The notes beneath the pieces were generated by a model. That model was given only the letters and a program-made list of their open reading frames with translations. It was not told the DNA's origin and did not search any database. Below are positions 7,662 through 54,126 of a DNA stretch of 64,000 nt, one piece after another. The DNA lies in contig JAHQJS010000003.1 in the NCBI GenBank assembly GCA_019057385.1, positions 83,212 through 147,211 of the forward strand. Reading direction: 5' to 3'. Origin of the DNA: Candidatus Borrarchaeum weybense (lineage in GTDB: Archaea; Asgardarchaeota; Sifarchaeia; Borrarchaeales; Borrarchaeaceae). Every line of letters starts with the position of its first letter. The stretch's first letter is position 1. Position numbers and translations under genes: made by a program.

Positions 7662-7759
7662 TATGAATTAAATCTTATCGTTAGTTCTTTCATCAATATA
7701 AGATAACTTAGTTTGATTCTTACCGTTCCTTTCATAATAGACATCTATTACAGCGAATA

Positions 7760-8054
7760 GTGTCTATCCACCCACGATAAGAACATGAGTGGAGGGCCCG
7801 CTAGGACGGTTAAGCGGGATACCTACCGCCATATAGGGTGCAGGCCTTGCGTGAACGAAACGATGATTTATTATCAGCGTTCCCGCAGAATCGACGGCGT
7901 ACGGGAGTGCTGGGCTGAAGTCCGTGAAGTGGTCCCGGGGCGAATGCTTAAACCTCCGGGTGCCTCATCTTACCATCAATTCTCACTTATATACTGGAGG
8001 ACCTGCTTTATAAACACCACGCCTCACGCGTTCACTGTGGAACCCCTTGCCCGC
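7760..8054 (-). ncRNA. Unassigned GC-rich structured RNA (family unknown; possibly a degenerate IS200/IS605 derivative)
   Basis: Clearly more GC-rich than its flanks, with many hairpins. CCACTCATG/CGTGGGTGG pairs fully only on the minus strand (two G-U pairs). TTTTATA box about 26 nt upstream of 8054. Confidence 0.45.
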
Positions 8055-8093
8055 GAAAGAATCGTCTATATTTGTCTATAAAATAAATAACTG

Positions 8094-8384
8094 TTAATCA
8101 CCCTCTTGTAACTTTTGTTTGATCACAAAAACTCGTATTTTTTCCTCTGCAATTATAAGTGTATCATTGATGGATTTAATTACAGAATGAGGAATTAAAA
8201 TTGTTCCTTTCTCATCGCGCGGAAATTTTTCAATATCTGGATGTTTAGTAGGCTTCACACACACCGCTAATAGGTGGCCATCTCGCGAATTAATTATGAA
8301 ATCAACTACCTTTCCCATAGCAGAACCTTTTTCATCAGTTACAGAAATACCAACTAAGTCCCGGATATCGATGATTTCCGACAT
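8094..8384 (-). CDS. PRC-barrel domain protein
   Basis: DLVGISVTDEKGSAMGKVVDFII...LIPHSVIKSINDTLII. Confidence 0.85.
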   Translation of the reverse strand: MSEIIDIRDLVGISVTDEKGSAMGKVVDFIINSRDGHLLAVCVKPTKHPDIEKFPRDEKGTILIPHSVIKSINDTLIIAEEKIRVFVIKQKLQEGD

Positions 8385-8634
8385 TTTTCATCCCATCAGA
8401 CCTTGCATGAGTCGGTCTATGTTAAATCAATATTTTTTGCTATTAATATCATCTGCTTCGAGTTATAAATTAGTCAAGTCATATTGACAGAACCTTTTCA
8501 AAAAGCAAAAATGAGAGTAGAATTGGAAAATTCAAAATTCGATTCAATAAATCTCGAATGAAAAGTGAAAACTAAAGAACGCTGTGCAATTATCTTCGTT
8601 TAAATCATACAAAAGTCTATCATAATGCAGGAAA

Positions 8635-8659
8635 TAGGAGGGAATAATCCCTCCTTATC
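8635..8659 (-). terminator. Hairpin closing the 3' side of the RAMP island RNA
   Basis: AGGAGGG-AATAAT-CCCTCCT inverted repeat just downstream (minus strand) of repeat copy 1. Confidence 0.4.
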
Positions 8660-8700
8660 TAATATTTACAGGAATGCCGATTAAGTCGCGGATATTTTTT

Positions 8701-8791
8701 TGACATTTTTCGTCCCCTGCGAGTCATTCATTCCCAACAAGTGAGGCGTCGGACCTCTAATTTGGTTCAGTCTCATGCACAAGAACGTGTC
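8701..8791 (-). repeat. RAMP-associated structured repeat, copy 1 (candidate ncRNA scaffold)
   Basis: 82/91 identical to 9813-9903. Outer stem GACA-CGTTCTTGTG/CGCAGGGGACG-AAAAA-TGTC and inner GAGG/CCTC hairpin. Confidence 0.85.
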
Positions 8792-8850
8792 CCCCGTGAT
8801 ATACGAAGAACATTCCGCCTTGTAACTCATTAAACCTCTTGAAAAGAGTC

Positions 8851-8859
8851 TATATAAAC
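8851..8859 (-). promoter_or_regulatory. TATA box for a transcript containing repeat copy 1
   Basis: GTTTATATA on the minus strand, just after the stop of 8881..9708, with no real gene downstream. Confidence 0.5.
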
Positions 8860-8880
8860 ACCGCGATTCAAAACAAAGAT

Positions 8881-9708
8881 TCATTCTTGCCATGTATACA
8901 AACCACTCTTCAAGTCATCAAGATAGAGATTTACCATAAGGAGTAGGTGATTTTTTAAAGATGAAAAGCCAAATTTTAGCGCTTCGCTGATCTTATCAAA
9001 CGCTTGACATTTTCGAATATAAGTATAAAGAGCATAAGGGGAATATTGACGCCTTTCTATCTCTATTTTTAATACATCGAAATCAATTTTTTCTAATTCT
9101 GTCACACGATAACGAGAGGACGCTGACCATCTAAATTTTCGAGAAATCATTGCAGATAGTCGGTCATAATGTTGTAATAAATAAAGCCAAAGAAAATCTT
9201 TTTCATCTATATCATAATTGTGATGATTCTTTGCAAGTTTGAAGACATCTTCGTCAGCTATATCAACATCAGTATAAATTTTACTTGGATGTCGATCAGT
9301 GCCTACAAAATCATGCAGGAGCATTGCTATAATTAACTTTTCCTGCATATCTGAGAGTTTAGGAAGTTTCTTACGAATCTTAATTCTTCTTGTAGTATAG
9401 AGAGGCTTTTTCTTGAGTTTTTTGAGAGAAGTCCAAAAGATTCGTCCCATCCCCTCACATGTATAACTTCCAACACTATCAATAGCAAGTGCTTCTTCAA
9501 GTTTATGTTCTGAAACGATAAACTCAATATTACCAAACCACGCCCTAAAGGTCATTGGCGCACGTCTTTGTCCTACCGTTAATTTTCCGAATACCCTGGG
9601 ACGACCTTTTATGGTCATCGCTCCAACGTCGGTAACTCCAAAATGTCTACGCTTTGAAACAATAGGAGTTTTTGTATAACCAATTAATTTAAAGTATTTC
9701 TGTGGCAT
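8881..9708 (-). CDS. Compact RAMP (Cas5-like) domain fused to an HD nuclease domain
   Basis: RAMP beta-1 (FKLIGYTKTPIV) and G-rich loop (VGSYTCEGMGRI), followed by HD motifs MLLHDF...NHH...YDRLSA. Confidence 0.7.
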   Translation of the reverse strand: MPQKYFKLIGYTKTPIVSKRRHFGVTDVGAMTIKGRPRVFGKLTVGQRRAPMTFRAWFGNIEFIVSEHKLEEALAIDSVGSYTCEGMGRIFWTSLKKLKKKPLYTTRRIKIRKKLPKLSDMQEKLIIAMLLHDFVGTDRHPSKIYTDVDIADEDVFKLAKNHHNYDIDEKDFLWLYLLQHYDRLSAMISRKFRWSASSRYRVTELEKIDFDVLKIEIERRQYSPYALYTYIRKCQAFDKISEALKFGFSSLKNHLLLMVNLYLDDLKSGLYTWQE

Positions 9709-9758
9709 TTTATTCCCTCTTATAAGATTTTACCTCCTCTTTGAACAAAAGAGAGGAG

Positions 9759-9771
9759 ATATAAACCTTGC
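9759..9771 (-). promoter_or_regulatory. Promoter motif GCAAGGTTTATAT upstream of the RAMP-HD gene
   Basis: Identical 13-mer at 10808-10820 upstream of the Cas7-like gene; contains a TATA box. Confidence 0.6.
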
Positions 9772-9812
9772 CAAAGTAAACACGTTTGCAACTGTTGTTT
9801 GTAAAGTGGGTA

Positions 9813-9903
9813 TGACATTTTTCGTTCCTTGCGAGTCATCCGTCCCCAACAATTGAGGCGTCGGACCTCTAAGCTGGTTCAGTCTCATGCACAAGAACGT
9901 ATC
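9813..9903 (-). repeat. RAMP-associated structured repeat, copy 2
   Basis: 82/91 identical to 8701-8791. Outer-stem differences keep pairing (G-U to A-U, C-G to U-G). Confidence 0.85.
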
Positions 9904-9962
9904 ACTCACATCAGTAAGTGATAAACCGTAATGAGATGAGAAAAAAAGTTGAAATAAATGTG

Positions 9963-10772
9963 TCACACAGCCACCTTCTCATCCTGTTTACTCATAGTAT
10001 TCAAAGAAGTTCTCCAATCCTCGATTTTACTTAGAGAAAGCGGAATTTCAGTGGTTTCTTCTATAATTTTATAGTTTCCTTCGCTATCCTCTTCGACTCT
10101 TCGAAAAGTCTCAACCTTCTGAAGAGCAATATTAAGGATTTTGACGCAACCATATCCACTTGACCGTCCTGCCCCAAGAATTTCTACGTAGAGCATTGCT
10201 TCTATAAGAAACTTGATTTCAACATCAGTTAGATTAGTGACATCAATTTGAAAGGAAAAAAATCCACTGAAATAACTCTCACGAAAGTCTTGGATGGGAG
10301 TACCATCATAGGCAAGCGCTATTCTGTTTTCACTAGAGATGTGGACATTTTGAACTGGCACTATTGTTATAAAATCTTTGTGTTTAATCGAGGCAATAGG
10401 GTCTGCTGCGACAACAATAGAGGACTTTTCACGGAAGGTGCCAAAGATTGTTCTGAGAATACAGGGAGGATCGCATGTACCAAGCGCATGAAATCCTTGC
10501 GGAAGAACACTTTTACCATCTTTAAGTTCAGTTTTTTCAGAACTATGACATACTTCGATGTTGCAGTCTTGAGCAAGTTCCATACAGGCATGTCTTAACA
10601 TCCCTCGGATACCTTTAATGTAATAAAATTTAGTATTGAACGTTTTTTCTCCATTCACATAAGGAAATTTCCCTAACAAGAGCATGCTAGAATTTTTCTG
10701 AATCGAGGCATTGATAGGCTTTGCTATGGGTGTAAAGGCGTGAACAACTATCTGGTTTTTGATTTTTCTCAT
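9963..10772 (-). CDS. Cas7-like RAMP superfamily protein
   Basis: IVVHAFTPI beta-1, IKGIRGMLRHA helix, Cys/His insertion ending CDPPCILRTIFG, C-terminal G-loop ILGAGRSSGYG. Confidence 0.85.
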   Translation of the reverse strand: MRKIKNQIVVHAFTPIAKPINASIQKNSSMLLLGKFPYVNGEKTFNTKFYYIKGIRGMLRHACMELAQDCNIEVCHSSEKTELKDGKSVLPQGFHALGTCDPPCILRTIFGTFREKSSIVVAADPIASIKHKDFITIVPVQNVHISSENRIALAYDGTPIQDFRESYFSGFFSFQIDVTNLTDVEIKFLIEAMLYVEILGAGRSSGYGCVKILNIALQKVETFRRVEEDSEGNYKIIEETTEIPLSLSKIEDWRTSLNTMSKQDEKVAV

Positions 10773-10807
10773 GTTTCCAACCTCAAATATATTTAGTACA
10801 AGTACCT

Positions 10808-10820
10808 ATATAAACCTTGC
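10808..10820 (-). promoter_or_regulatory. Promoter motif GCAAGGTTTATAT upstream of the Cas7-like gene
   Basis: Identical to 9759-9771. Confidence 0.6.
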
Positions 10821-11115
10821 TCAAAATAAACACTTTTTCTACTCTTGTTAGTAAAATGGGGTTTAAAATGACTTCCTTTTTAGAAATAAAGTATTTTAAA
10901 CAGGTTTTATGTGAAAAACCATTGTATGTTTAGAACCTGATTTATAAATCACAATGTAACATTCAATTTACATCATCATTTTTTTAAAAGAATAGTTGTT
11001 TGATTTAACAAAATTAAGTTTCTTCGGGAATTCAAAAAGAGTACATTGATGGTATCAACTAAACTAAAAATCGTTCGAAAAAAATAATTGTTCCATTGAT
11101 GGTTGCTAATAAAAA

Positions 11116-14100
11116 TTAGGGCAATAGATCTTTTACTGTAACTGGAGGACCCTTTTTCTGTGGTTTATAGATGCCTTCTAAATGTTGGAATCTTTCAAAC
11201 ATTAAGTGGAGAGTTTCCTTATCTGGAGCGTAAATAAAGGGGATGAATCGCTTATTTTCTAGCAAAAAATCCTTGAGTTGTACTGCACACTGCCTTAAAG
11301 CCTCCATTACTGTCATCTTCTGTTCAAGATAGTATATTTCTTGATTGAGTATATCATCAACTAGTCTCTCAACTTTGTAGTGTCCATTCCATGTTAGGTG
11401 ATAGAATTGTTCGTGTTCAAGCGTTTTACGCTTCTTGAAATCAGCTTTTGTAAATTCACCATACAAACATGCTAAAATTAGGGTGAGCCTGAACAAGGGA
11501 ATAAACATTTCTCGAAAATCAAAGATAGTGCCTAGAAAGGAGCGTTGGGTTTTTTTAAAGTGCAGTATCAGTTCATCCGGTACCCAAGAAAATCCTACTT
11601 CAGCGAGTGCTTTTCGACAGTAAAGGTTAAGATGACGATAAACAGCATTGAGTGCAGCACTAAAGGGTGTACGTGCTTTTACTTCTCCTAAAAGGACAAC
11701 GGTGGAAATATAGCGTTCTAGGGTACGACTAATGATCTCAAAGTAGGTTCCTCTTAGCAAACGTTTAGGGATTTCCCAGGCAACTCCTTCAACTAAGCCT
11801 TCAAACCCACGGAGGTTGTCAATATTACCCCTCCAATAGAGAAAAGTATATGCTACTCGATCCAGCAATTTAGATAAGAGCTCTTGAGCATTTTCAGCAG
11901 ATAACAACCCCTCTTTTTCAACTTGGAGTACTGAATTGGCTAGACCTATATCTTTACTTATTGTCAGAAGCCATGCTAGCAATTTGCCTCGTTCTGTTCC
12001 TCTGATTCGCTGAGCGGCATATTTCAGTTCGTCGGCTACCTGTTGTTTCTTTGGAGTTAGTTTATTTTGTGCAAAGAAACTACCTTTTGGTGTATTTGCA
12101 TCAATGAGTTTCTTGCTATATTTCTTACGAATGTATTGCGATATATCGCCACCTTCAATGATGATATTACGGATAGCACCGACTAAATACCGTTTTGTTT
12201 CTCTTCCGTCTTTTAGTGTATGAACAAATCGTTTTTTTCTAATATCGAGCCTTTCATTACACTTGACACGGATATTTCGTTTTGGTCTTCTGATATAGAC
12301 CTTTGTCTTTTTAACTCTCTGAACATAATTCCCGGGCTTACCTATAAGCAGTTCTAAATTTGTTTGCAATACATCACGATAACCCGGTTTTATTACAAGT
12401 TCACCATTAACGGTCAAATGATAACTGGAATTGCATTCAGGACAGACTGTATATTCCATATATGAGGACGGTAATTCCACAATGCCACGAGGTTTACAGT
12501 TTAAACATGTAATGCTGCCATTTGTTTCTTGCAATATTCTTATTTTACGTTTTTTTAACCTTTGAACATTTTCGTGATGTTCGCATGCACTCTTCCTTGG
12601 TGTGGCGTAAGGATTTCTTGCTCGTTTTCCTACTTGTTTGTTTAATTTGCAGTTTAACACACAAACATGTGCATGTTTCGATCTTCGACGGTCCTTTATA
12701 GGGTTTATCTGAATGAACTTACAAGATCCACAGGTGAGCCGAAGATGTTCAGGAATACTTGCGTTCACATCAGCTACATAGATTTTGGGGCGCCCTCGAA
12801 GCTGACCTTGAGAGATAACCTGTATTTGCTCTTGTATTTTTAACTGCTTGATGTGCTTAACTATCGTAGTATAGTGAACATTTTGATTGTATTGCTTGCG
12901 AACCTCTGACAAAATAAAATCGTAAGAAATGATTCCATGTTTTTTAATAATGTTATAAATTGCTTTATGAAGTCCGGGATATGGTTTCGGTCTTTGCTTT
13001 GGATACCAACGTCTCTTTTTAACTTTTTTCGCTTCATTAGCTTTAAGCTCATTATATTTAGCATTTAGTTTAGTTGAGAGTTCTTTAGCGACTCGTGCTT
13101 CTCTCAGGTCTCTTTGTCCCAAAAAGCTATAACTTGCTTCTGCGATCCATGAGGCTGTTTTCTTATGAGATTCAGCATCACCCAGTCGTATTTTTGCCTG
13201 AATTGCAGCTTCTGTTACTGTAGATCCTTGACTTAGTAACTTAATGAAGGCTGTATACTGTTGGGCGTTATACCGTTTGGTGTTACTTAGTTCACGCATA
13301 CATTGCCCAACAAGTTTGACTAATTGTTGGGAAAACTCCTGTTCTGAAGAGGAATGATTTGTGACAAAAAACTTCTTGATCCTTATTGCAATTTTGATCG
13401 GCAGTAAATATTTACTTGCCCAACGACCCTTGTCTGTTGCACAGAACCTTCCTCCATTTTTTCTAACAAAACCTTCCGTGATCAGCGTTTGAAGGATACC
13501 CTGTTTCTTATTTCTTTCATCAGACTCAGGTTTAGCCAATAGATCTCCTTTTAATTGCTGTTTGAAGTCTTTCAATTTGTCATAGGTGAATGGTGTGAGA
13601 AATAAGCGAAGTTCGCCGTATTTAACCTTGTTTGCAGTGGTTCTTTTCCTGATCCAAATGAAAAATGTTCGAGTTAATCGTTTCAAGTCGTTCGGCAGGG
13701 AACCTTTGTGTGCGTCGAATAGTATTAACAGTAAATGATTTTCATTATTAAGTTGGCATAGTTCCTCTTCTTTGGTCATAAGTGCACTATTCATTAGTTC
13801 GAACCAGTTCCGTAGCATTGTTTTGTATTGATGAAAGAAATAGTGCCTTTCAAGTTTGCTCAGTAATTGATTCGAGGATACAGAACCCTTAGCTATTAAT
13901 GTAAGTACAATATCTGCCATTGAAGAACGTGCTTGGCTTTTAATGCTATGTTCTTTCACTATCAGTTGTCCTTCAACGATTTGTATCTCCTTTTGTTTCA
14001 GAAGTTCTTGGTCGTTTCCAACAAAGATCAAGTCAGCATACCCAATCCTATGATGTCGCGGTCGTGCCGCCCTGCCACTCAGTTGTATAAGCAGTTGGGG

Positions 14101-15099
14101 GCTGAACATTTCAGCATCGTTGATTATCACTCGTTTAATCGGAAAGTTAACCCCCTCTCCGTATTGGATTGTTGAAACAAAGACCTGAAATTCGCCATTG
14201 TTAAGTCGCCTCATAGCTTCTCGTTGTTCTTTCTTACTGAGTCCTGCGTGACTGTAGCCAACTTTGAGATCGAAACCAGAATTCTTGAGAAAGATCTGCA
14301 ATATTTCAGCATATTTCTCAACCTGTTTTCGTGTGTAACAGAAGAGTTGCACGATTTTGATCTGATGTTCATCATTCGAAGGTTGCTCAAAGGTCTTTTT
14401 TATCAATCTAGCGAAAAGAAAAATCTTTTTTCGTTCAATTTGTTCTAATTTATTGCCTGAAATTCCAAAAGTCGACACAATAAGTGTCGATCGCCGCTCT
14501 TTTGTGTGTATAAGATGAGCATCGAGCCAACTTGCCAGATCTTCAGTATTACCTAATGTAGCCGAGAGATAGATAATTTGCGGACGAGGACGCAACCACG
14601 CTTTAGCATTAACAATTGCGGTTTCTAGGTGCACGCCCCGCCCTTTTTTGCCTAAATTGTGCAGTTCGTCAACTACCAGCAATCCCACTTGGTCTAAGAA
14701 TGGATATTCAAAATGTTTGGCTAGTAGTCCATTAAAGGATTCGTAGGTGATGACGAGAATATCCGCACTTTGAATCTCTTCAGGAGCTGGTCGATCATCT
14801 CCGCTGACCCTGAGGATGGTACATGTGTCTTGATACCACTCTTTGAATCTATCGTACATTTGATCGATTAGACGCTTGGTCGGCTCAAGGATCACACAGC
14901 GCAAACCTTTTCCTAGTATTTTTGTAGACATTATTTGAGCGATCAAGGTTTTTCCCGAAGCTGTGGGAGAGTACAATATCTTATCCTGTCTTTGCTTCCC
15001 AGAAAAACATGCTTCCCATTGAAAATCGTAGAGAGCTTTGATGTCAGCCTGTTCTAATCGTTGACGAATGAATTCGTAGTTAAACCCTCTTTTTGTCAT
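11116..15099 (-). CDS. SF2 (Ski2/Hel308-like) helicase - wHTH/Zn-finger - Cas1-like integrase fusion
   Basis: N-terminus: PTASGKT, VVDELH, LSAT, HAGL, QLSGRAAR. Middle: CGSC, CLNC, CPEC. C-terminus: Cas1-type LRGFEG, SAALNAVYRHL, GFSWVPDELILH, FDFREMFIP. Confidence 0.8.
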   Translation of the reverse strand: MTKRGFNYEFIRQRLEQADIKALYDFQWEACFSGKQRQDKILYSPTASGKTLIAQIMSTKILGKGLRCVILEPTKRLIDQMYDRFKEWYQDTCTILRVSGDDRPAPEEIQSADILVITYESFNGLLAKHFEYPFLDQVGLLVVDELHNLGKKGRGVHLETAIVNAKAWLRPRPQIIYLSATLGNTEDLASWLDAHLIHTKERRSTLIVSTFGISGNKLEQIERKKIFLFARLIKKTFEQPSNDEHQIKIVQLFCYTRKQVEKYAEILQIFLKNSGFDLKVGYSHAGLSKKEQREAMRRLNNGEFQVFVSTIQYGEGVNFPIKRVIINDAEMFSPQLLIQLSGRAARPRHHRIGYADLIFVGNDQELLKQKEIQIVEGQLIVKEHSIKSQARSSMADIVLTLIAKGSVSSNQLLSKLERHYFFHQYKTMLRNWFELMNSALMTKEEELCQLNNENHLLLILFDAHKGSLPNDLKRLTRTFFIWIRKRTTANKVKYGELRLFLTPFTYDKLKDFKQQLKGDLLAKPESDERNKKQGILQTLITEGFVRKNGGRFCATDKGRWASKYLLPIKIAIRIKKFFVTNHSSSEQEFSQQLVKLVGQCMRELSNTKRYNAQQYTAFIKLLSQGSTVTEAAIQAKIRLGDAESHKKTASWIAEASYSFLGQRDLREARVAKELSTKLNAKYNELKANEAKKVKKRRWYPKQRPKPYPGLHKAIYNIIKKHGIISYDFILSEVRKQYNQNVHYTTIVKHIKQLKIQEQIQVISQGQLRGRPKIYVADVNASIPEHLRLTCGSCKFIQINPIKDRRRSKHAHVCVLNCKLNKQVGKRARNPYATPRKSACEHHENVQRLKKRKIRILQETNGSITCLNCKPRGIVELPSSYMEYTVCPECNSSYHLTVNGELVIKPGYRDVLQTNLELLIGKPGNYVQRVKKTKVYIRRPKRNIRVKCNERLDIRKKRFVHTLKDGRETKRYLVGAIRNIIIEGGDISQYIRKKYSKKLIDANTPKGSFFAQNKLTPKKQQVADELKYAAQRIRGTERGKLLAWLLTISKDIGLANSVLQVEKEGLLSAENAQELLSKLLDRVAYTFLYWRGNIDNLRGFEGLVEGVAWEIPKRLLRGTYFEIISRTLERYISTVVLLGEVKARTPFSAALNAVYRHLNLYCRKALAEVGFSWVPDELILHFKKTQRSFLGTIFDFREMFIPLFRLTLILACLYGEFTKADFKKRKTLEHEQFYHLTWNGHYKVERLVDDILNQEIYYLEQKMTVMEALRQCAVQLKDFLLENKRFIPFIYAPDKETLHLMFERFQHLEGIYKPQKKGPPVTVKDLLP

Positions 15100-15640
15100 A
15101 ATAATGATCTGCCCCCTCAGCTTCGTCTAATTAGATATTAGCTAAAATTCATTTATAAAGCGGGTAAACTTTCAAATCGATTGCTAGAATGTTCTATTCG
15201 ATAAAAAACAAGTTTGCCTTCGGCATAGTTACCTTCGCTATGTCGCTTCTCAAAAAAAAACCACCGTTGAAGAAGGTAATTAATCCTTCTCTTCAATGAT
15301 AGAGGAGGGTTCGATTTTAATCACCTATAGAACATAATGAAATACAGAGGACAAAAAACTACAATAAGACTTATTGCTTCCAAAGTATTTAAACTCGACA
15401 ACTCGTGATTTAAGTAGTTAATCAAGAAGGCTAAACTTCTTAGAAAATATGGTAGAAGAATCTTCATCGAAAAAGGTTTTTGAGGGAAAAGAAAAACATC
15501 TGTGACATTGTTCCTACTATAAGTTTGCCGATAAAGTTAAAAAAAAGACTTCGTATAGATATTGTCCAATACTTTGGCACAATAATGTAACTCGTGGACT
15601 ATTTTAATAATATAAGTTCCCTTGTAATCAAACAATTGAA

Positions 15641-15906: not shown

Positions 15907-16221
15907 GTGAGCTACCTCGTGCTAAAGCTTTGAGGCTTCCTGCTTCTACGACAGACTCGATCCCCTGGCGGGTTACGGAGGTCTTATCTCCACAGGCTTA
16001 ACATCCCTACGCCCCGTAGGTACGGTTAACCATCGTGATGCAATCGAAGTATGCATCTTGACTACAAGTGTGCGTGTGATCCCTCCAATTGCAGTTGATA
16101 TCTCGTCATACCAGCTATATAACTCTTAGGGAGACCCCTCGATGCAAGTGATAAAAGTGAACACATATTATTGCAATTCATCACCACGCTGAAGCTTTGG
16201 TGCTTTCTTGCTCAGCTACTC
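15907..16221 (-). mobile_element. Non-autonomous IS200/IS605 (TnpB-type) miniature element
   Basis: Subterminal hairpins, right end ...TAGCTCAC, TTAC next to the left end (16222-16225). Homologous blocks at both ends of 43000-43588. Confidence 0.8.
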
Positions 16222-16243
16222 GTAATTTTTCATTAGATTTCTT

Positions 16244-52650: not shown

Positions 52651-53853
52651 CTAACATAAACTGAATAATAACCCTTTTCCATATTTTACCAACTCCACTT
52701 TTTTAATTGTGACGCTGTGATTTTTTCCTTTAGGATTGTCCAATAAAACTCGTTTTCCGTAACAATGAACTCCTTTCACTCTATATGTACTATTATTATA
52801 CTTGACAAGGTCATATGGTAGCAACTGGTATTTTTGTCTCCTAATAGATGGTTTGAATCCCTTTCGATTCGTCTGTAGCGAACGGTTATTGCGCCTGACT
52901 TGTATCACCTCATATGGTCTGCAGCGTTCTTGGTTGGTTCCGCCGGCAATAACGAACGCGTCATTAACATGAGATTTTTCTAAACCTAACTTATTGCGGT
53001 GGTATTTAGTAACGTATCCGTAAGTATATTCTGCATCTAATTGCTCTACTAACTTCCAACGAATGCTATTCAGACACGCGGTTGCTTTAAGTGATTTCTT
53101 TGCCTTTTTCTGTATGTGTAGGTAGCCGAACTCCTCGGCGGTCTTATCTCCTTTTTTAAGGTTACATTTCTTGCATGCAATCGTCAAATTCGACACTCTA
53201 TCAGTTCCTCCTCGACTTTTAGGGACGATATGCTCAACTTCTACGGGAACACCCGTTTTACCACAATAGGCACATGTACGCCCCCATTTGTCTAAAAGGT
53301 ATTCTTTGACTTCGTAACCCTGAAGTTCGCCCTGTTGATACTCTACACCTGTAATTTCTGGGTTCTGCATTTTGTGAGCGTCGAAATTGCCCACCTCTAC
53401 CTTTTTGAAAGGTATTGGTAGCAACTTTTCAAGCGTTTCAACTAATCGAATATGTGACTCTTGTTTATGCTGAATACTGGGAGCTAACCAGCCTTCAGGT
53501 CGTGTTCGGTTATCAAATCGTGGTGGTCGATACCCTAATCTGCCTCTACGAGTTCTACGATACATACGTTTTTCCGCTAGCTTTTTAGAAACATCCTTGC
53601 GCAAGGTCAAAGTACCACTGATGACTTCTAACTTATCGGTCTTAGCACTAAATCCGATGTTCATATATCCGAGGTCCACTCCCAGTGCAATCGGTTGCCT
53701 AGTTTCTCCGGTAGCATAGTTAAACTGAATGGTAAAAGGGCATCGCTGAACAACGTGTGCCTTGCCTTCTTTTAACAACTTCTTGCCGTTGTGTTGTGTA
53801 GTAGGCATGAGCGGTTGCCCCCTCATGTTTACCACATAGATAGGTACTCTCAA
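52651..53853 (-). CDS. iscB: RNA-guided endonuclease IscB
   Basis: PLMP domain, RuvC-I GVDLG, Arg-rich bridge helix, RuvC-II E, HNH (CAYC..EHIVPKSRGG..NL..C..CN), RuvC-III SHVNDA. Confidence 0.96.
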   Translation of the reverse strand: MRVPIYVVNMRGQPLMPTTQHNGKKLLKEGKAHVVQRCPFTIQFNYATGETRQPIALGVDLGYMNIGFSAKTDKLEVISGTLTLRKDVSKKLAEKRMYRRTRRGRLGYRPPRFDNRTRPEGWLAPSIQHKQESHIRLVETLEKLLPIPFKKVEVGNFDAHKMQNPEITGVEYQQGELQGYEVKEYLLDKWGRTCAYCGKTGVPVEVEHIVPKSRGGTDRVSNLTIACKKCNLKKGDKTAEEFGYLHIQKKAKKSLKATACLNSIRWKLVEQLDAEYTYGYVTKYHRNKLGLEKSHVNDAFVIAGGTNQERCRPYEVIQVRRNNRSLQTNRKGFKPSIRRQKYQLLPYDLVKYNNSTYRVKGVHCYGKRVLLDNPKGKNHSVTIKKVELVKYGKGLLFSLC

Positions 53854-54126
53854 GTCCTATCGCCTCCTTTAACGTCTGTTAAAGTAGGTTGGTTCTCTTC
53901 GCCAAGGTTATCAGTCAGTACTCTACGGTGATCACTGAGAGTTTCCTCTCTGTTTAAACCATCATTTACAGAGCAAGGGACTAGAGAAGCATCCCTTGGT
54001 GTGTTCTTGAACTCTCCTGATAACTCAGATACCGCCATAAACTGTATGACCTCTCTTAGGCTAATCAACTAATTGCTCTCATTCCTCACGGAACAAGCCC
54101 CTACCCTTTAGGTTGGGGTAATTGAC
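53854..54126 (-). ncRNA. IscB omegaRNA scaffold (guide comes from the flank above 54126)
   Basis: Typical order GTCAA-hairpin, AGTTGATTAGCCTAAG, GGATGCTTCTCTAGTCCC, TAAACA, AACCTTGGCGAAGAGAAC. Confidence 0.85.

What the first reader, a model, noticed from the sequence alone, without database searches (positions are those of the whole stretch)
8635..15120. Array-less CRISPR-Cas-derived system: helicase-Cas1, Cas7-like, RAMP-HD and two structured RNA repeats
Seen: three co-oriented genes (helicase-Zn-Cas1 fusion, Cas7-like RAMP, RAMP-HD fusion) inserted among housekeeping genes. There is no CRISPR array, cas2, cas6, cas8 or cas10 in the window, and a 91-nt repeat follows each RAMP gene. Established: Cas7/Cas5 RAMPs bind guide RNA, HD domains are the Cas3/Cas10 nucleases, Cas1 is an integrase, and derived Cas1/RAMP loci without arrays have been reported from Asgard archaea. 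Inference: a minimal RNA-guided effector using a non-CRISPR structured RNA, with helicase-Cas1 providing integration or mobility. It could be a defence module or an RNA-guided mobile element.
Basis: partly seen in the sequence, partly recalled or inferred. Interest (0 to 1): 0.92.

Follow-up and report, generated by a model that had tools for sequence, protein, structure and literature searches.

The report
Mobile Asgard Cas1/RAMP element with guide-like RNA
This is a 6.9-kb mobile copy of the array-less, CRISPR-derived "ARAMP" cassette of Asgard archaea, and it carries its own ~120-base folded RNA whose tail copies the host gene sequence lying exactly at the insertion point, which suggests an untested kind of RNA-guided mobile element built on a Cas1 integrase.

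Summary
Three co-oriented minus-strand genes encode an SF2 helicase–Zn–Cas1 fusion (catalytic E/H/D kept), a Cas7-like RAMP, and a single-RRM RAMP fused to a Cas10-type HD domain. Each RAMP gene is followed by the repeat, which is the core of a ~122-nt structured RNA (covariation-supported hairpin; no Rfam family). The gene set is the published but untested ARAMP cassette.

New here:
- The RNA occurs about 25 times in this genome, mostly next to paralogous cassettes. It is in all four congeners and one sister family, and in none of 55 other Asgard genomes searched.
- The whole locus (window 8376-15292) is an insertion. Two sister species join the flanks directly inside the 5' end of a PRC-barrel gene.
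- The RNA after the RAMP-HD gene has its own TATA box. It is followed by a 32-nt segment and a terminator hairpin.
- That 32-nt segment matches the host gene starting at the insertion point: 31/32 to the empty site, 26/32 to its own flank.
- The same geometry recurs at ftsY (two genomes), pyrD and a fourth site.

Best reading (~0.55): an RNA-guided homing or integrating element. Earlier agents of this scan noted ARAMP with an RNA on other DNA; the guide–junction match is verified here. Nothing has been tested experimentally.

The parts
8376..15292 (-). Whole inserted element (6,917 bp): helicase-Cas1, Cas7-like RAMP, RNA-A, RAMP-HD, RNA-B with guide-like tail, and a terminal segment.
   Evidence: G004:C28 and G002:C29 join window ~8375 directly to ~15293 at 93-96% flank identity.
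8368..8375 (.). 8-bp direct repeat TCGATGAT at the RNA-side junction. Its partner is TCAATGAT at 15293-15300. It may be a target-site duplication, or part of the replacement 5' end of the host gene.
   Evidence: Junction sequences read. The empty sites carry a single TCAATGAT/TCAATAAT.
15293..15300 (.). Second copy of the 8-bp direct repeat, at the helicase-side junction.
11116..15099 (-). 1327-aa fusion protein. Residues 1-430 are a Hel308/Ski2-like SF2 helicase. The middle holds winged-helix-like and Cys-cluster regions. Residues ~950-1290 are a Cas1 domain with E1100, H1180 and D1194 conserved.
   Evidence: Pfam DEAD and Helicase_C; NCBIfam Hel308 models. Paralogs hit Cas_Cas1 at 31.9 and 36.5 bits against a cut-off of 22.3. 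Profile A4 against PDB: 4n06_A at E 1.6e-17 and casposase 6opm_A at 4.6e-15.
9963..10772 (-). 269-aa Cas7-like RAMP (Csm3-like), with a CH...C...C cluster and a G-rich loop.
   Evidence: Pfam RAMPs 28.3 bits. PADLOC Csm3 at 2.3e-8. AF2 model (pLDDT 75.8): the top Foldseek matches are Cas7 subunits of types IV-A, VII, I-D, I-A, Cas7-11 and Csm3, at E from 2e-7.
9813..9933 (-). RNA-A: a ~121-nt structured RNA scaffold after the Cas7 gene. Its 3' flank (9760-9812) is a 51-nt block that is repeated upstream of the Cas7 gene and includes the TATA box of the RAMP-HD gene.
   Evidence: Covariance model hit, 126 bits. Flank repeat scores 28.5 against a shuffle maximum of 13.
8881..9708 (-). 275-aa RAMP-HD protein. 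Residues 1-106 are a single RRM-type RAMP domain with a G-rich loop. Residues 119-275 are an HD nuclease domain of the Cas10/Csm1 type; H132, D133, H140, H162, H163 and H254 are invariant.
   Evidence: AF2 model pLDDT 88.9. VIA-align: 6ifk_A Z 8.8 and 6mua_A Z 7.8 for residues 119-275; Cas6, Csf, Csm4 and Cmr3 RAMPs at Z 6-8 for residues 1-106. Alignment A3.
8701..8822 (-). RNA-B: a ~122-nt structured RNA scaffold after the RAMP-HD gene.
   Evidence: Covariance model hit, 134.8 bits. Hairpin P1 has 8 of 9 pairs with compensatory changes over 50 copies.
8851..8858 (-). TATA-box-like TTTATATA ~29 nt upstream of the RNA-B scaffold. It is conserved upstream of other RNA copies that follow the RAMP-HD gene.
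   Evidence: Read. Aligned copies. Promoter function is inferred.
8664..8695 (-). 32-nt guide-like tail of RNA-B (ATATCCGCGACTTAATCGGCATTCCTGTAAAT), 6 nt after the scaffold.
   Evidence: 31/32 identical to the G004 empty site, 30/32 to G002 and 26/32 to its own flank. Local-alignment score 17.5 against a shuffle maximum of 14.
8636..8655 (-). Hairpin AGGAGGGATTATTCCCTCCT followed by a T-rich stretch: the likely terminator of RNA-B.
   Evidence: Predicted in the MFE fold. Function is inferred.
8376..8635 (-). Terminal segment of the element. It holds a promoter-like TTTATAA and ends in GGGATGAAAAATGTCGGAA. That end resembles the RNA's 3' end and supplies a new ATG for the truncated host gene.
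   Evidence: (repeat D6).
8338..8369 (-). Host 'protospacer': codons ~4-14 of the resident PRC-barrel gene. It begins 0-8 nt from the insertion point and has the same sense as the guide-like tail.
8094..8384 (-). Host PRC-barrel gene (96 aa). Its native first 8 codons are displaced to the other side of the element and replaced by element-encoded M-S-E.
   Evidence: Pfam PRC 37.6 bits. Compared with the sister genomes.

Best explanation
The locus is a mobile ARAMP element, integrated in the 5' end of a host PRC-barrel gene.

Proposed mechanism:
1. RNA-B is transcribed from its own promoter as a ~120-nt scaffold, then a ~32-nt tail, then a terminator.
2. The RAMP domain of the RAMP-HD protein (Cas5-like position) and several Cas7-like subunits assemble on this RNA as a class-1-type complex. 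The scaffold plays the part of a very long 5' handle and the tail the part of a spacer.
3. The tail has the sense of the host gene, so the complex would pair with the template DNA strand of the unoccupied target gene. The scaffold-proximal end, and hence the HD nuclease, would sit exactly where the element is found inserted.
4. The element then enters that site. This happens either by cleavage and homologous repair from an occupied allele (homing, as shown for TnpB/IscB), or by integration catalysed by the helicase-Cas1 fusion.
5. The element's terminal segment restores a promoter and start codon for the interrupted gene.

Shown here: the folds and families of the three proteins; conservation and covariation of the RNA; its linkage to the genes; the insertion polymorphism; and the tail-to-junction match at several independent targets.

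Inferred: transcription and processing of the RNA; its binding by the RAMPs; DNA targeting; the role of HD; and any role of Cas1 or the helicase.
For: Proteins:
- The helicase-Cas1 fusion keeps its catalytic residues.
- The 269-aa protein has a Cas7 fold.
- The 275-aa protein is a RAMP plus a Cas10-type HD domain.
- A predicted Cas7/RAMP-HD interface uses the RAMP domain. Score 0.68 against a best control of 0.00; the mark was reached by 58 of 80 solved complexes and 2 of 110 mismatched pairs; runs agree in at least 83% of contacts; partner pLDDT is at least 70. The pass may reflect likeness to solved Cas5-Cas7 complexes.

RNA:
- 25-27 copies in the genome; most of those I placed follow a paralogous Cas7 or RAMP-HD gene on the same strand.
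- Found in 4/4 congeners and in 1/1 genome of a sister family, and in 0/55 other genomes of the phylum searched.
- 94% of cells are paired against 41-58% for slid controls. 14 pairs show double changes. G-U pairs make the structure strand-specific.
- No Rfam family matches.

Mobility:
- Empty sites in G004 and G002 for this locus, and for two paralogous islands at ftsY and on contig C5.
- Those two larger islands carry different cargo genes.
- The RAMP-HD family is multi-copy in the few Asgard genomes that have it: 14 of 151 genomes.

Guide-like tail:
- Discrete 25-34-nt segments directly 3' of a scaffold match the host sequence that begins at the insertion point, in the PRC, ftsY, C5 and pyrD loci (0 of 200 shuffles reach the score in each).
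- A sister element on a metagenome contig shows the same at ftsY, and its tail and flank change together relative to this genome.
- The PRC tail stays 31/32 identical to the relatives' allele, while the resident coding copy has 6 changes. A neutral relic would not behave this way.
Against: - No expression data were available.
- Only about 5 of ~12 RNA copies at the RNA-side end in this genome, and none of the non-paralogous loci sampled from G004, G001 or G005 within 1.5 kb, show a tail-to-downstream match.
- One apparent case (acyl-CoA dehydrogenase) turned out to be tandem paralogous genes.
- Tails carry 4-6 mismatches to their own flanks.
- There is no consistent target-site duplication and no terminal inverted repeat. 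That does not fit classical Cas1 integration.
- RNA-A has no target-matching tail; it is followed by a duplicated promoter block.
- Distant Thor- and Heimdall-group homologues of the RAMP pair have no adjacent helicase-Cas1 and no detectable copy of this RNA.
- A segment duplicated at an ancestral junction could in principle produce the same geometry.
Confidence: 0.55

Rival explanations
1. The cassette is an array-less, type III-derived defence or abortive-infection module, which is the published suggestion for HRAMP/ARAMP. It merely rides on integrative islands. The RNA would be a structural cofactor or regulator, and the target-like tails would be leftovers of old junctions.
For: Reviews describe ARAMP/HRAMP as probable defence systems with active nucleases. 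The helicase domain resembles helicases of defence systems such as SngC, BrxH and HamB. The larger islands carry variable cargo. Many RNA copies lack a recognisable target match.
Against: The smallest island (this window) holds only the cassette, so the cassette itself is what moved. Tails are discrete, lie at a fixed place after the scaffold, and start at the insertion point in four independent targets. The PRC tail is better conserved than the coding copy. About 11 diverged paralogous cassettes in one genome is unusual for a defence system.
Confidence: 0.17
2. The ~120-nt element acts at the DNA level, or in cis: as a recognition sequence for the integrase, a processing or termination signal, or a 5' leader for the downstream host gene. 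Under this reading the duplicated host segment is a long, R-loop-independent duplication made during integration by Cas1, much as a CRISPR repeat is duplicated.
For: Cas1 integration duplicates the sequence between its two staggered attacks. The duplicated segments are 25-34 nt, which is repeat-sized. Partial copies of the RNA's 3' motif (GACGAAAAAxGTC) sit near element ends. In sister genomes some copies lie 7-10 nt before host start codons.
Against: The two copies in an element are direct, not inverted, and the helicase-side end has none. The duplicated segment does not flank the element; it lies inside it. The PRC pair is 19% diverged although the insertion is younger than a ~5% species split, and all changes are on the coding copy. 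G-U pairs make the fold strand-specific. RNA copies after the RAMP-HD gene have a conserved TATA box.
Confidence: 0.18
3. The RAMP proteins use ordinary crRNAs from the genome's canonical CRISPR array, and the local repeat is unrelated to them.
For: One array of 49 repeats with cas1 and cas2 exists at C4:148-155 kb.
Against: The array lies on another contig. Its repeat shares nothing obvious with the scaffold. The structured RNA accompanies the RAMP genes in ten of the twelve loci mapped, including sister genomes.
Confidence: 0.03

Closest known systems
ARAMP (Asgard RAMP) cassettes with a distinct Cas1 (aCas1). Source: Makarova, Wolf, Shmakov, Liu, Li & Koonin 2020, CRISPR J 3:156. That paper was not readable here; I know it through PMC8730458 and PMC12669027.
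   Same: Asgard host; no adjacent array; Cas7 and Cas5-like RAMPs of type III affinity; an associated nuclease; and a very divergent Cas1.
   Different: The reviews I could read call these systems array-less and their mechanism enigmatic, and they name no RNA. Found here: a dedicated ~120-nt structured RNA; a guide-like tail that matches the insertion site; and direct evidence (empty sites) that the cassette is a discrete mobile unit.
aCas1-TnpB elements of Asgard archaea (Altae-Tran et al. 2023, PMC10691335).
   Same: An Asgard Cas1 variant, proposed there to be the transposase, travels with an RNA-guided nuclease. A hypervariable, spacer-like region lies next to a conserved RNA-coding region.
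   Different: The RNA-guided part here is a multi-subunit Cas7 plus RAMP-HD pair, not TnpB. Cas1 is fused to a Hel308-like helicase. No flanking repeats were seen here.
OMEGA systems (IscB/TnpB with ωRNA) and their homing role (PMC10055086).
   Same: A long structured scaffold is followed by a 3' guide that corresponds to the DNA just outside the element's end. The insertion separates the target from the sequence on its other side. In some sister-genome copies the scaffold directly abuts the host gene.
   Different: The proteins are unrelated (class-1-type RAMPs plus HD). In this locus the guide-like segment is stored inside the element, 300-500 nt from the end, rather than read through from the flank.
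CRISPR-associated Tn7-like transposons (CAST) with homing guides (PMC11406308).
   Same: A nuclease-poor class 1 effector on a mobile element, with a dedicated guide that matches a chromosomal attachment site next to a conserved gene.
   Different: There are no TnsA/B/C or TniQ genes and no CRISPR repeat. Insertion is at the edge of the target rather than ~50-80 bp away. An HD nuclease is retained. The candidate integrase is Cas1.
Casposons (Cas1-dependent self-synthesising transposons).
   Same: A Cas1-family integrase is encoded on a mobile element. The profile also hits the M. mazei casposase structure 6opm.
   Different: No PolB. No terminal inverted repeats were found. No 14-15-bp target duplication. 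The element carries RAMP genes and an RNA.

Membership tests
ARAMP (Asgard array-less RAMP system) | Cas7-like and Cas5-like RAMP genes of type III affinity, side by side. | tested here: met
   Cas7 fold. RAMP domain in the 275-aa protein. The genes are adjacent and co-oriented.
ARAMP (Asgard array-less RAMP system) | No CRISPR array at the locus. | tested here: met
   No array in the window or on its contig near the locus. The only array in the genome is on contig C4.
ARAMP (Asgard array-less RAMP system) | An associated nuclease and, in most loci, a distinct, divergent Cas1. | tested here: met
   HD domain with an invariant H/D set. Cas1 domain fused to a helicase.
ARAMP (Asgard array-less RAMP system) | Host is an Asgard archaeon. 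| tested here: met
   Sources name close homologues as Candidatus Borrarchaeum, Sifarchaeia, Promethearchaeota, Heimdall- and Thorarchaeota.
Canonical type III CRISPR-Cas | Cas10 large subunit with Palm/cyclase domains. | tested here: not met
   Only a 157-residue HD domain of the Cas10 type is present, fused to a RAMP. The three proteins have no Palm domain.
Canonical type III CRISPR-Cas | A repeat-spacer array that supplies the crRNA. | tested here: not met
CRISPR adaptation module | cas1 together with cas2. | tested here: not met
   The only cas2 in the genome is at C4:154630, next to the canonical cas1.
Casposon | Family B DNA polymerase, terminal inverted repeats and a 14-15-bp target duplication. 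| tested here: not met
   The element has three ORFs and none is a polymerase. No TIR was found by BLAST of the ends. The duplication is 8 bp at most here and absent in two other islands.
CAST (Tn7-like CRISPR-associated transposon) | TnsB/TnsC/TniQ transposition genes. | tested here: not met
   None among the element's ORFs by Pfam or NCBIfam. The cargo of the larger islands is TPR/LRR proteins.
OMEGA (TnpB/IscB + ωRNA) | A single RuvC-type (TnpB) or RuvC/HNH-type (IscB) effector protein. | tested here: not met
   The effector candidates are RAMP proteins plus HD. An unrelated HEARO RNA lies elsewhere in the window.
RNA-guided mobile element (functional class) | An element-encoded RNA carries a segment that matches the attachment site. 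| tested here: met
   Seen at the PRC, ftsY (two genomes), C5 and pyrD loci.
RNA-guided mobile element (functional class) | The RNA is expressed, is bound by the effector and directs insertion or cleavage. | not testable with these tools
   No RNA run was listed. This needs bench work.

The most novel reading that the evidence does not exclude
ARAMP elements are a new class of RNA-guided mobile DNA. A class-1-type Cas7/Cas5-HD complex, loaded with a non-CRISPR scaffold-plus-guide RNA, recognises the 5' end of a host gene. It directs insertion exactly at the edge of the target, through the helicase-Cas1 fusion or through HD cleavage and homologous repair. This would be the first RNA-guided integration system outside the Tn7 family and the OMEGA nucleases. 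It would also link Cas1, RAMP effectors and guide RNA in one mobile element, which bears on how CRISPR-Cas arose or decays.
Probability: 0.4. Interest if true: 0.95.

Novelty: new variant of a known kind. Interest (0 to 1): 0.82.

Why it matters
ARAMP has stood since 2020 as an "enigmatic" array-less CRISPR derivative with a Cas1 and no known RNA. This locus offers a concrete, testable answer with four parts:
- a dedicated RNA with a defined scaffold, tail and terminator;
- defined natural targets (PRC-barrel gene, ftsY, pyrD);
- a minimal 6.9-kb element with only three genes;
- matched empty sites in sister species.

If the tail guides insertion, this is a compact, non-Tn7 route to programmable DNA insertion. 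It would also be a living example of Cas1, RAMP proteins and a guide RNA cooperating in a mobile element. If it does not, the conserved RNA and the precise gene-5'-end targeting with replacement promoters still need an explanation.

Tried and rejected
- **Rfam.** Gathering and permissive thresholds gave no family for the repeat.
- **Single-sequence folding.** The RNA does not fold better than shuffles (z +0.7 to -2.1). Support for the structure comes from covariation only.
- **Small-protein reading.** The 70- and 78-aa ORFs over the repeats have no family hits, and frame-breaking indels separate the copies.
- **Public RNA runs.** No RNA holder was listed, so no read mapping was possible.
- **Acyl-CoA dehydrogenase case.** The tail/target match in G004 and G001 is tandem gene paralogy and was dropped.
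- **Terminal repeats.** I found no terminal inverted repeats and no shared end sequences among three islands.
- **RNA-A tail.** I looked for a match to the helicase-side junction or to the host flanks. Only the duplicated promoter block upstream of the Cas7 gene matched.
- **RNA in distant homologues.** The model found no convincing hit in Thor- and Heimdall-group loci (best 17.8 bits, inside the RAMP-HD gene).
- **Window protein against Pfam Cas1.** The window's own 1327-aa protein gave no Cas_Cas1 hit. The assignment rests on its 72-73% identical paralogs and on the family profile.
- **Divergence near the junction.** Excess divergence next to the RNA-side junction is present in the PRC and C5 loci but not at ftsY. 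I do not rely on it.
- **Primary ARAMP paper.** PMC7307682 could not be read.
Full report
**1. What is there**

The finding sits on the minus strand and holds three ORFs:
- 11116-15099 (1327 aa)
- 9963-10772 (269 aa)
- 8881-9708 (275 aa)

91-nt direct repeats lie at 9813-9903 and 8701-8791, 90% identical. The flanks are housekeeping genes: ribosomal proteins L3/L4/L2, an Rpb8/RpoG subunit, PAC2, Lsm and archaeosine TGT. Names attached to close homologues place the organism among Asgard archaea: Candidatus Borrarchaeum, Sifarchaeia and 'Promethearchaeota'.

**2. The proteins**

*The 1327-aa protein.*
- It starts with a Hel308/Ski2-like SF2 helicase: Pfam DEAD 95.7 bits and Helicase_C 56 bits, plus NCBIfam Hel308-type models.
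- The window copy gave no Pfam Cas1 hit. Its 72-73% identical paralogs in the same genome pass the Cas_Cas1 cut-off (31.9 and 36.5 bits against 22.3), over profile positions 7-264 of 283.
- A profile of the C-terminal 468 residues with 22 relatives hits Cas1 of A. fulgidus (4n06_A, E 1.6e-17, residues 17-344 of 347) and the M. mazei casposase (6opm_A, E 4.6e-15).
- The Cas1 catalytic positions are conserved: E1100 and H1180 invariant, D1194 nearly so.
- The family is rare: 29 clusters among 1.84 billion representatives.

*The 269-aa protein.*
- It passes Pfam RAMPs (28.3 bits) and matches Csm3 models (PADLOC, 2.3e-8).
- Its AlphaFold model (pLDDT 75.8) finds Cas7 subunits of types IV-A, VII, I-D, I-A, Cas7-11 and Csm3. 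The best E-value is 2e-7, and 157 matches lie below 1e-3.

*The 275-aa protein.*
- It has no family hit.
- Its model (pLDDT 88.9) splits into two domains. Residues 1-106 form a RAMP-type RRM, with Z 6-8 to Cas6, Csf, Csm4 and Cmr3. Residues 119-275 match the HD domain of Cas10/Csm1 (6ifk_A, Z 8.8, rmsd 3.2 over 142 residues; 6mua_A, Z 7.8).
- The H/D residues are invariant in 40 homologues.

*Predicted contact between the two.* A complex prediction places the Cas7-like protein against the RAMP domain of the RAMP-HD protein. The score is 0.68 against a best control of 0.00. That mark was reached by 58 of 80 solved complexes and by 2 of 110 mismatched pairs. The runs agree in at least 83% of contacts and the partner's pLDDT is at least 70. 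This may only reflect likeness to solved Cas5-Cas7 contacts.

**3. This is the known ARAMP cassette**

Reviews describe 'ARAMP' in Asgard archaea as an array-less, type III-derived set of diverged Cas5 and Cas7 with nucleases and, mostly, a distinct Cas1. They call the mechanism enigmatic and name no RNA (PMC8730458, PMC12669027). I could not read the primary paper. A later paper proposes that Asgard Cas1 variants are transposases of elements that carry TnpB (PMC10691335). Full-text searches found no report of an RNA partner for ARAMP, or of a guide.

**4. The repeat is a structured RNA gene linked to the cassette**

- *Copy number and position.* BLAST and a covariance model find 25-27 copies in this 4.18-Mb genome. 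Most of those I placed sit just after a paralogous Cas7 or RAMP-HD gene on the same strand.
- *Paralogous cassettes.* The genome holds 6 helicase-Cas1 genes (32-73% identical to the window copy). It also holds 11 Cas7-like and 9 complete or frameshifted RAMP-HD genes (34-89% identical), plus one RAMP-HD fragment.
- *Extent.* The conserved element extends ~30 nt upstream of the 91-nt repeat, giving ~122 nt.
- *Covariation.* Over 50 copies from six genomes, 94% of cells pair, against 41-58% when partners are slid. 14 of 26 pairs show changes on both sides, including 8 of 9 pairs in the 5' hairpin. Frequent G-U pairs make the fold specific to this strand. The other helices are mostly invariant in sequence, so they remain predictions.
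- *Distribution.* The RNA is in 4/4 congeners and in the one genome of a sister family (33 hits). It is in none of 55 other genomes of the phylum that were searched.
- *Not a known family, not a protein.* No Rfam family matches. Indels of 1, 3, 4 and 6 nt rule out the overlapping small ORFs.

**5. The locus is an insertion**

In G004 and G002 (same genus; flanks 88-96% identical) window ~8375 is joined directly to ~15293. The inserted DNA is 8376-15292 and contains nothing but the cassette. It lies within the first codons of a PRC-barrel gene. The native first 8 codons remain on the helicase side. On the RNA side the element ends in ...GGGATGAAAAATGTCGGAA, which supplies a new ATG in frame. 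An 8-bp direct repeat (TCGATGAT / TCAATGAT) brackets the element.

Two paralogous cassettes are also insertions with empty sites in G004 and/or G002:
- a 10.4-kb island in ftsY. Its end carries a diverged replacement for the ftsY promoter and codons 1-37.
- a 10.6-kb island on contig C5.

Both carry extra, unrelated cargo (TPR and LRR proteins) beyond the helicase gene, and neither shows a clear target duplication. I found no terminal inverted repeats.

**6. The guide-like tail**

RNA-B has a TATA-like box ~29 nt upstream, conserved among RNA copies that follow the RAMP-HD gene. Six bases after the scaffold comes a 32-nt segment (8664-8695), followed by a hairpin and a T-rich stretch.

The 32-nt segment is the sense sequence of the PRC-barrel gene, starting 0-8 nt from the insertion point. 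Its identity to each version of the site is:

| Compared with | Identity |
|---|---|
| G004 empty site | 31/32 |
| G002 empty site | 30/32 |
| Resident copy, 333 nt downstream | 26/32 |

The same arrangement recurs:
- *ftsY island.* A 34-nt tail, 28/34 identical to its own flank. The match begins exactly where the native gene was cut.
- *C5 island.* A ~33-nt tail on the first of three RNA copies. The match begins at the junction.
- *Cassette remnant next to pyrD.* A 25-nt tail with one mismatch, matching the first codons of pyrD.
- *A weaker 17-22-nt case* at C4:423757.
- *Metagenome contig.* A sister element (Cas7 94% identical) also sits at ftsY with a 31-nt tail, 27/31 to its flank. Relative to this genome, its tail and flank have changed together at three adjacent positions.

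In each listed case no shuffle of 200 reached the observed score, and the flanks of the matching segment are unrelated.

Because the tail has the sense of the host gene, it could pair with DNA but not with the host mRNA.

In the PRC case the non-coding internal copy has stayed like the relatives' allele, while the coding copy took six changes, three of them non-synonymous. That is the reverse of what a decaying relic would show.

**7. Limits**

- Only about five of twelve RNA copies at the RNA-side end in this genome show such a match. None of the loci sampled from G004, G001 or G005 do within the 1.5 kb available, apart from a false case caused by tandem acyl-CoA dehydrogenase genes.
- In some sister-genome copies the scaffold lies 7-10 nt before the start codon of a full host gene (S19e, a GlmM-like mutase). 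This could be a 'read-through' version in which the flank itself serves as the tail, but I could not test that.
- RNA-A has no target-like tail. It is followed by a 51-nt block that is repeated upstream of the Cas7 gene and includes the TATA box.
- Excess divergence of host DNA next to the RNA-side junction is seen at PRC (15 of 17 mismatches fall in the first 110 nt) and at C5, but not at ftsY.
- Homologues of the RAMP pair in Thor- and Heimdall-group genomes lack an adjacent helicase-Cas1 and lack this RNA.
- The RAMP-HD family occurs in 14 of 151 Asgard genomes sampled and is multi-copy where present.
- A canonical array with cas1 and cas2 exists on another contig.

**8. Reading**

The most economical account is that this is a mobile ARAMP element whose own RNA provides a long scaffold and a ~32-nt guide to its attachment site. 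The polarity (handle 5', guide 3') is that of a crRNA, with the RAMP-HD protein in the Cas5 position and the Cas7-like protein along the guide. This puts the HD nuclease at the very edge of the target, where the element is found inserted.

The sequences do not decide whether entry is by HD cleavage and homologous repair (homing, as for TnpB/IscB) or by helicase-Cas1 integration. The lack of a regular target duplication leans towards homing. The conserved active Cas1 argues that it does something, possibly integration or acquisition of the tail.

I put 0.55 on RNA-guided site recognition. I put 0.17 on a defence module riding on islands, 0.18 on a cis-acting or DNA-level role with duplication relics, and 0.03 on use of canonical crRNAs.

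**9. Novelty**

The gene cassette is known, and earlier agents of this scan have already noted ARAMP copies with a folded RNA and with insertion polymorphism on other DNA. First readers also proposed homing guides for this genome. Added and checked here: the empty sites for three islands, the exact tail-to-junction geometry at four independent host genes, the replacement 5' gene ends, and the conservation argument for the tail.

I file this as a new variant of a known kind, of high interest because it turns an enigmatic system into a set of simple experiments.

Noticed in passing
window 53888-54126 (-), with ORF 52651-53853 (-): Rfam HEARO RNA (RF02033, 121 bits, full length) lies directly upstream of a 400-aa ORF. 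This is probably an IscB/IsrB-type OMEGA element, unrelated to the finding.
   Followed up: no
window 15907-16225: A ~320-nt repeat sits just outside the element's helicase-side flank and is absent at this site in G004. It has 20 near-full copies in this genome and dozens in G004: a MITE-like element.
   Followed up: partly
window 7723-8102: A 380-nt segment with a 98-aa ORF (7785-8081) is absent at this site from G004 and G002. One other near-full copy and several fragments occur in this genome, with partial matches in G001-G004. It is a second small insertion next to the PRC-barrel gene.
   Followed up: partly
G000:C4:148433-154842: The genome's only canonical CRISPR locus. It has 49 repeats (GTTGCAAAAGAATTCCTTAAGTAATAAGGATTGAAAT in the likely transcribed sense), with cas1 at 153602 and cas2 at 154630.
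   Followed up: partly
window 9760-9812 and ~10810-10860 (-): A 51-nt block that includes the TATA box is repeated after RNA-A (before the RAMP-HD gene) and before the Cas7 gene. A related motif, TACCCGCTTTATAAA, precedes the helicase gene. It may be a shared operator, or a target for self-regulation.
   Followed up: partly
L034, L047, L052 (G001); G000:C4:1262879-1262998: Some copies of the RNA lie 7-10 nt before the start codon of a complete host gene: ribosomal protein S19e, a GlmM-like mutase, and genes of unknown function. It looks as if the scaffold is transcribed into the host gene.
   Followed up: partly
window 8094-8375 against G004:C28: Host DNA next to the RNA-side junction is much more diverged than the rest of the same gene: 15 of 17 mismatches fall in the first 110 nt. 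A similar excess is seen at the C5 island but not at ftsY. Possible causes are co-conversion from a donor or escape from self-targeting.
   Followed up: partly
L084:12066-12630 against G000:C4:338790-339353: At three adjacent positions the tail and the ftsY flank have changed together between this genome and a metagenome contig (GCAGCTGAAAT against GCGAATGAAAT).
   Followed up: partly
G005 (sister family, 2 Mb, 80% complete): The genome has 33 hits of the RNA model but only three partial RAMP-HD matches. Either the RNA far outnumbers the genes there or the assembly breaks at these loci.
   Followed up: no
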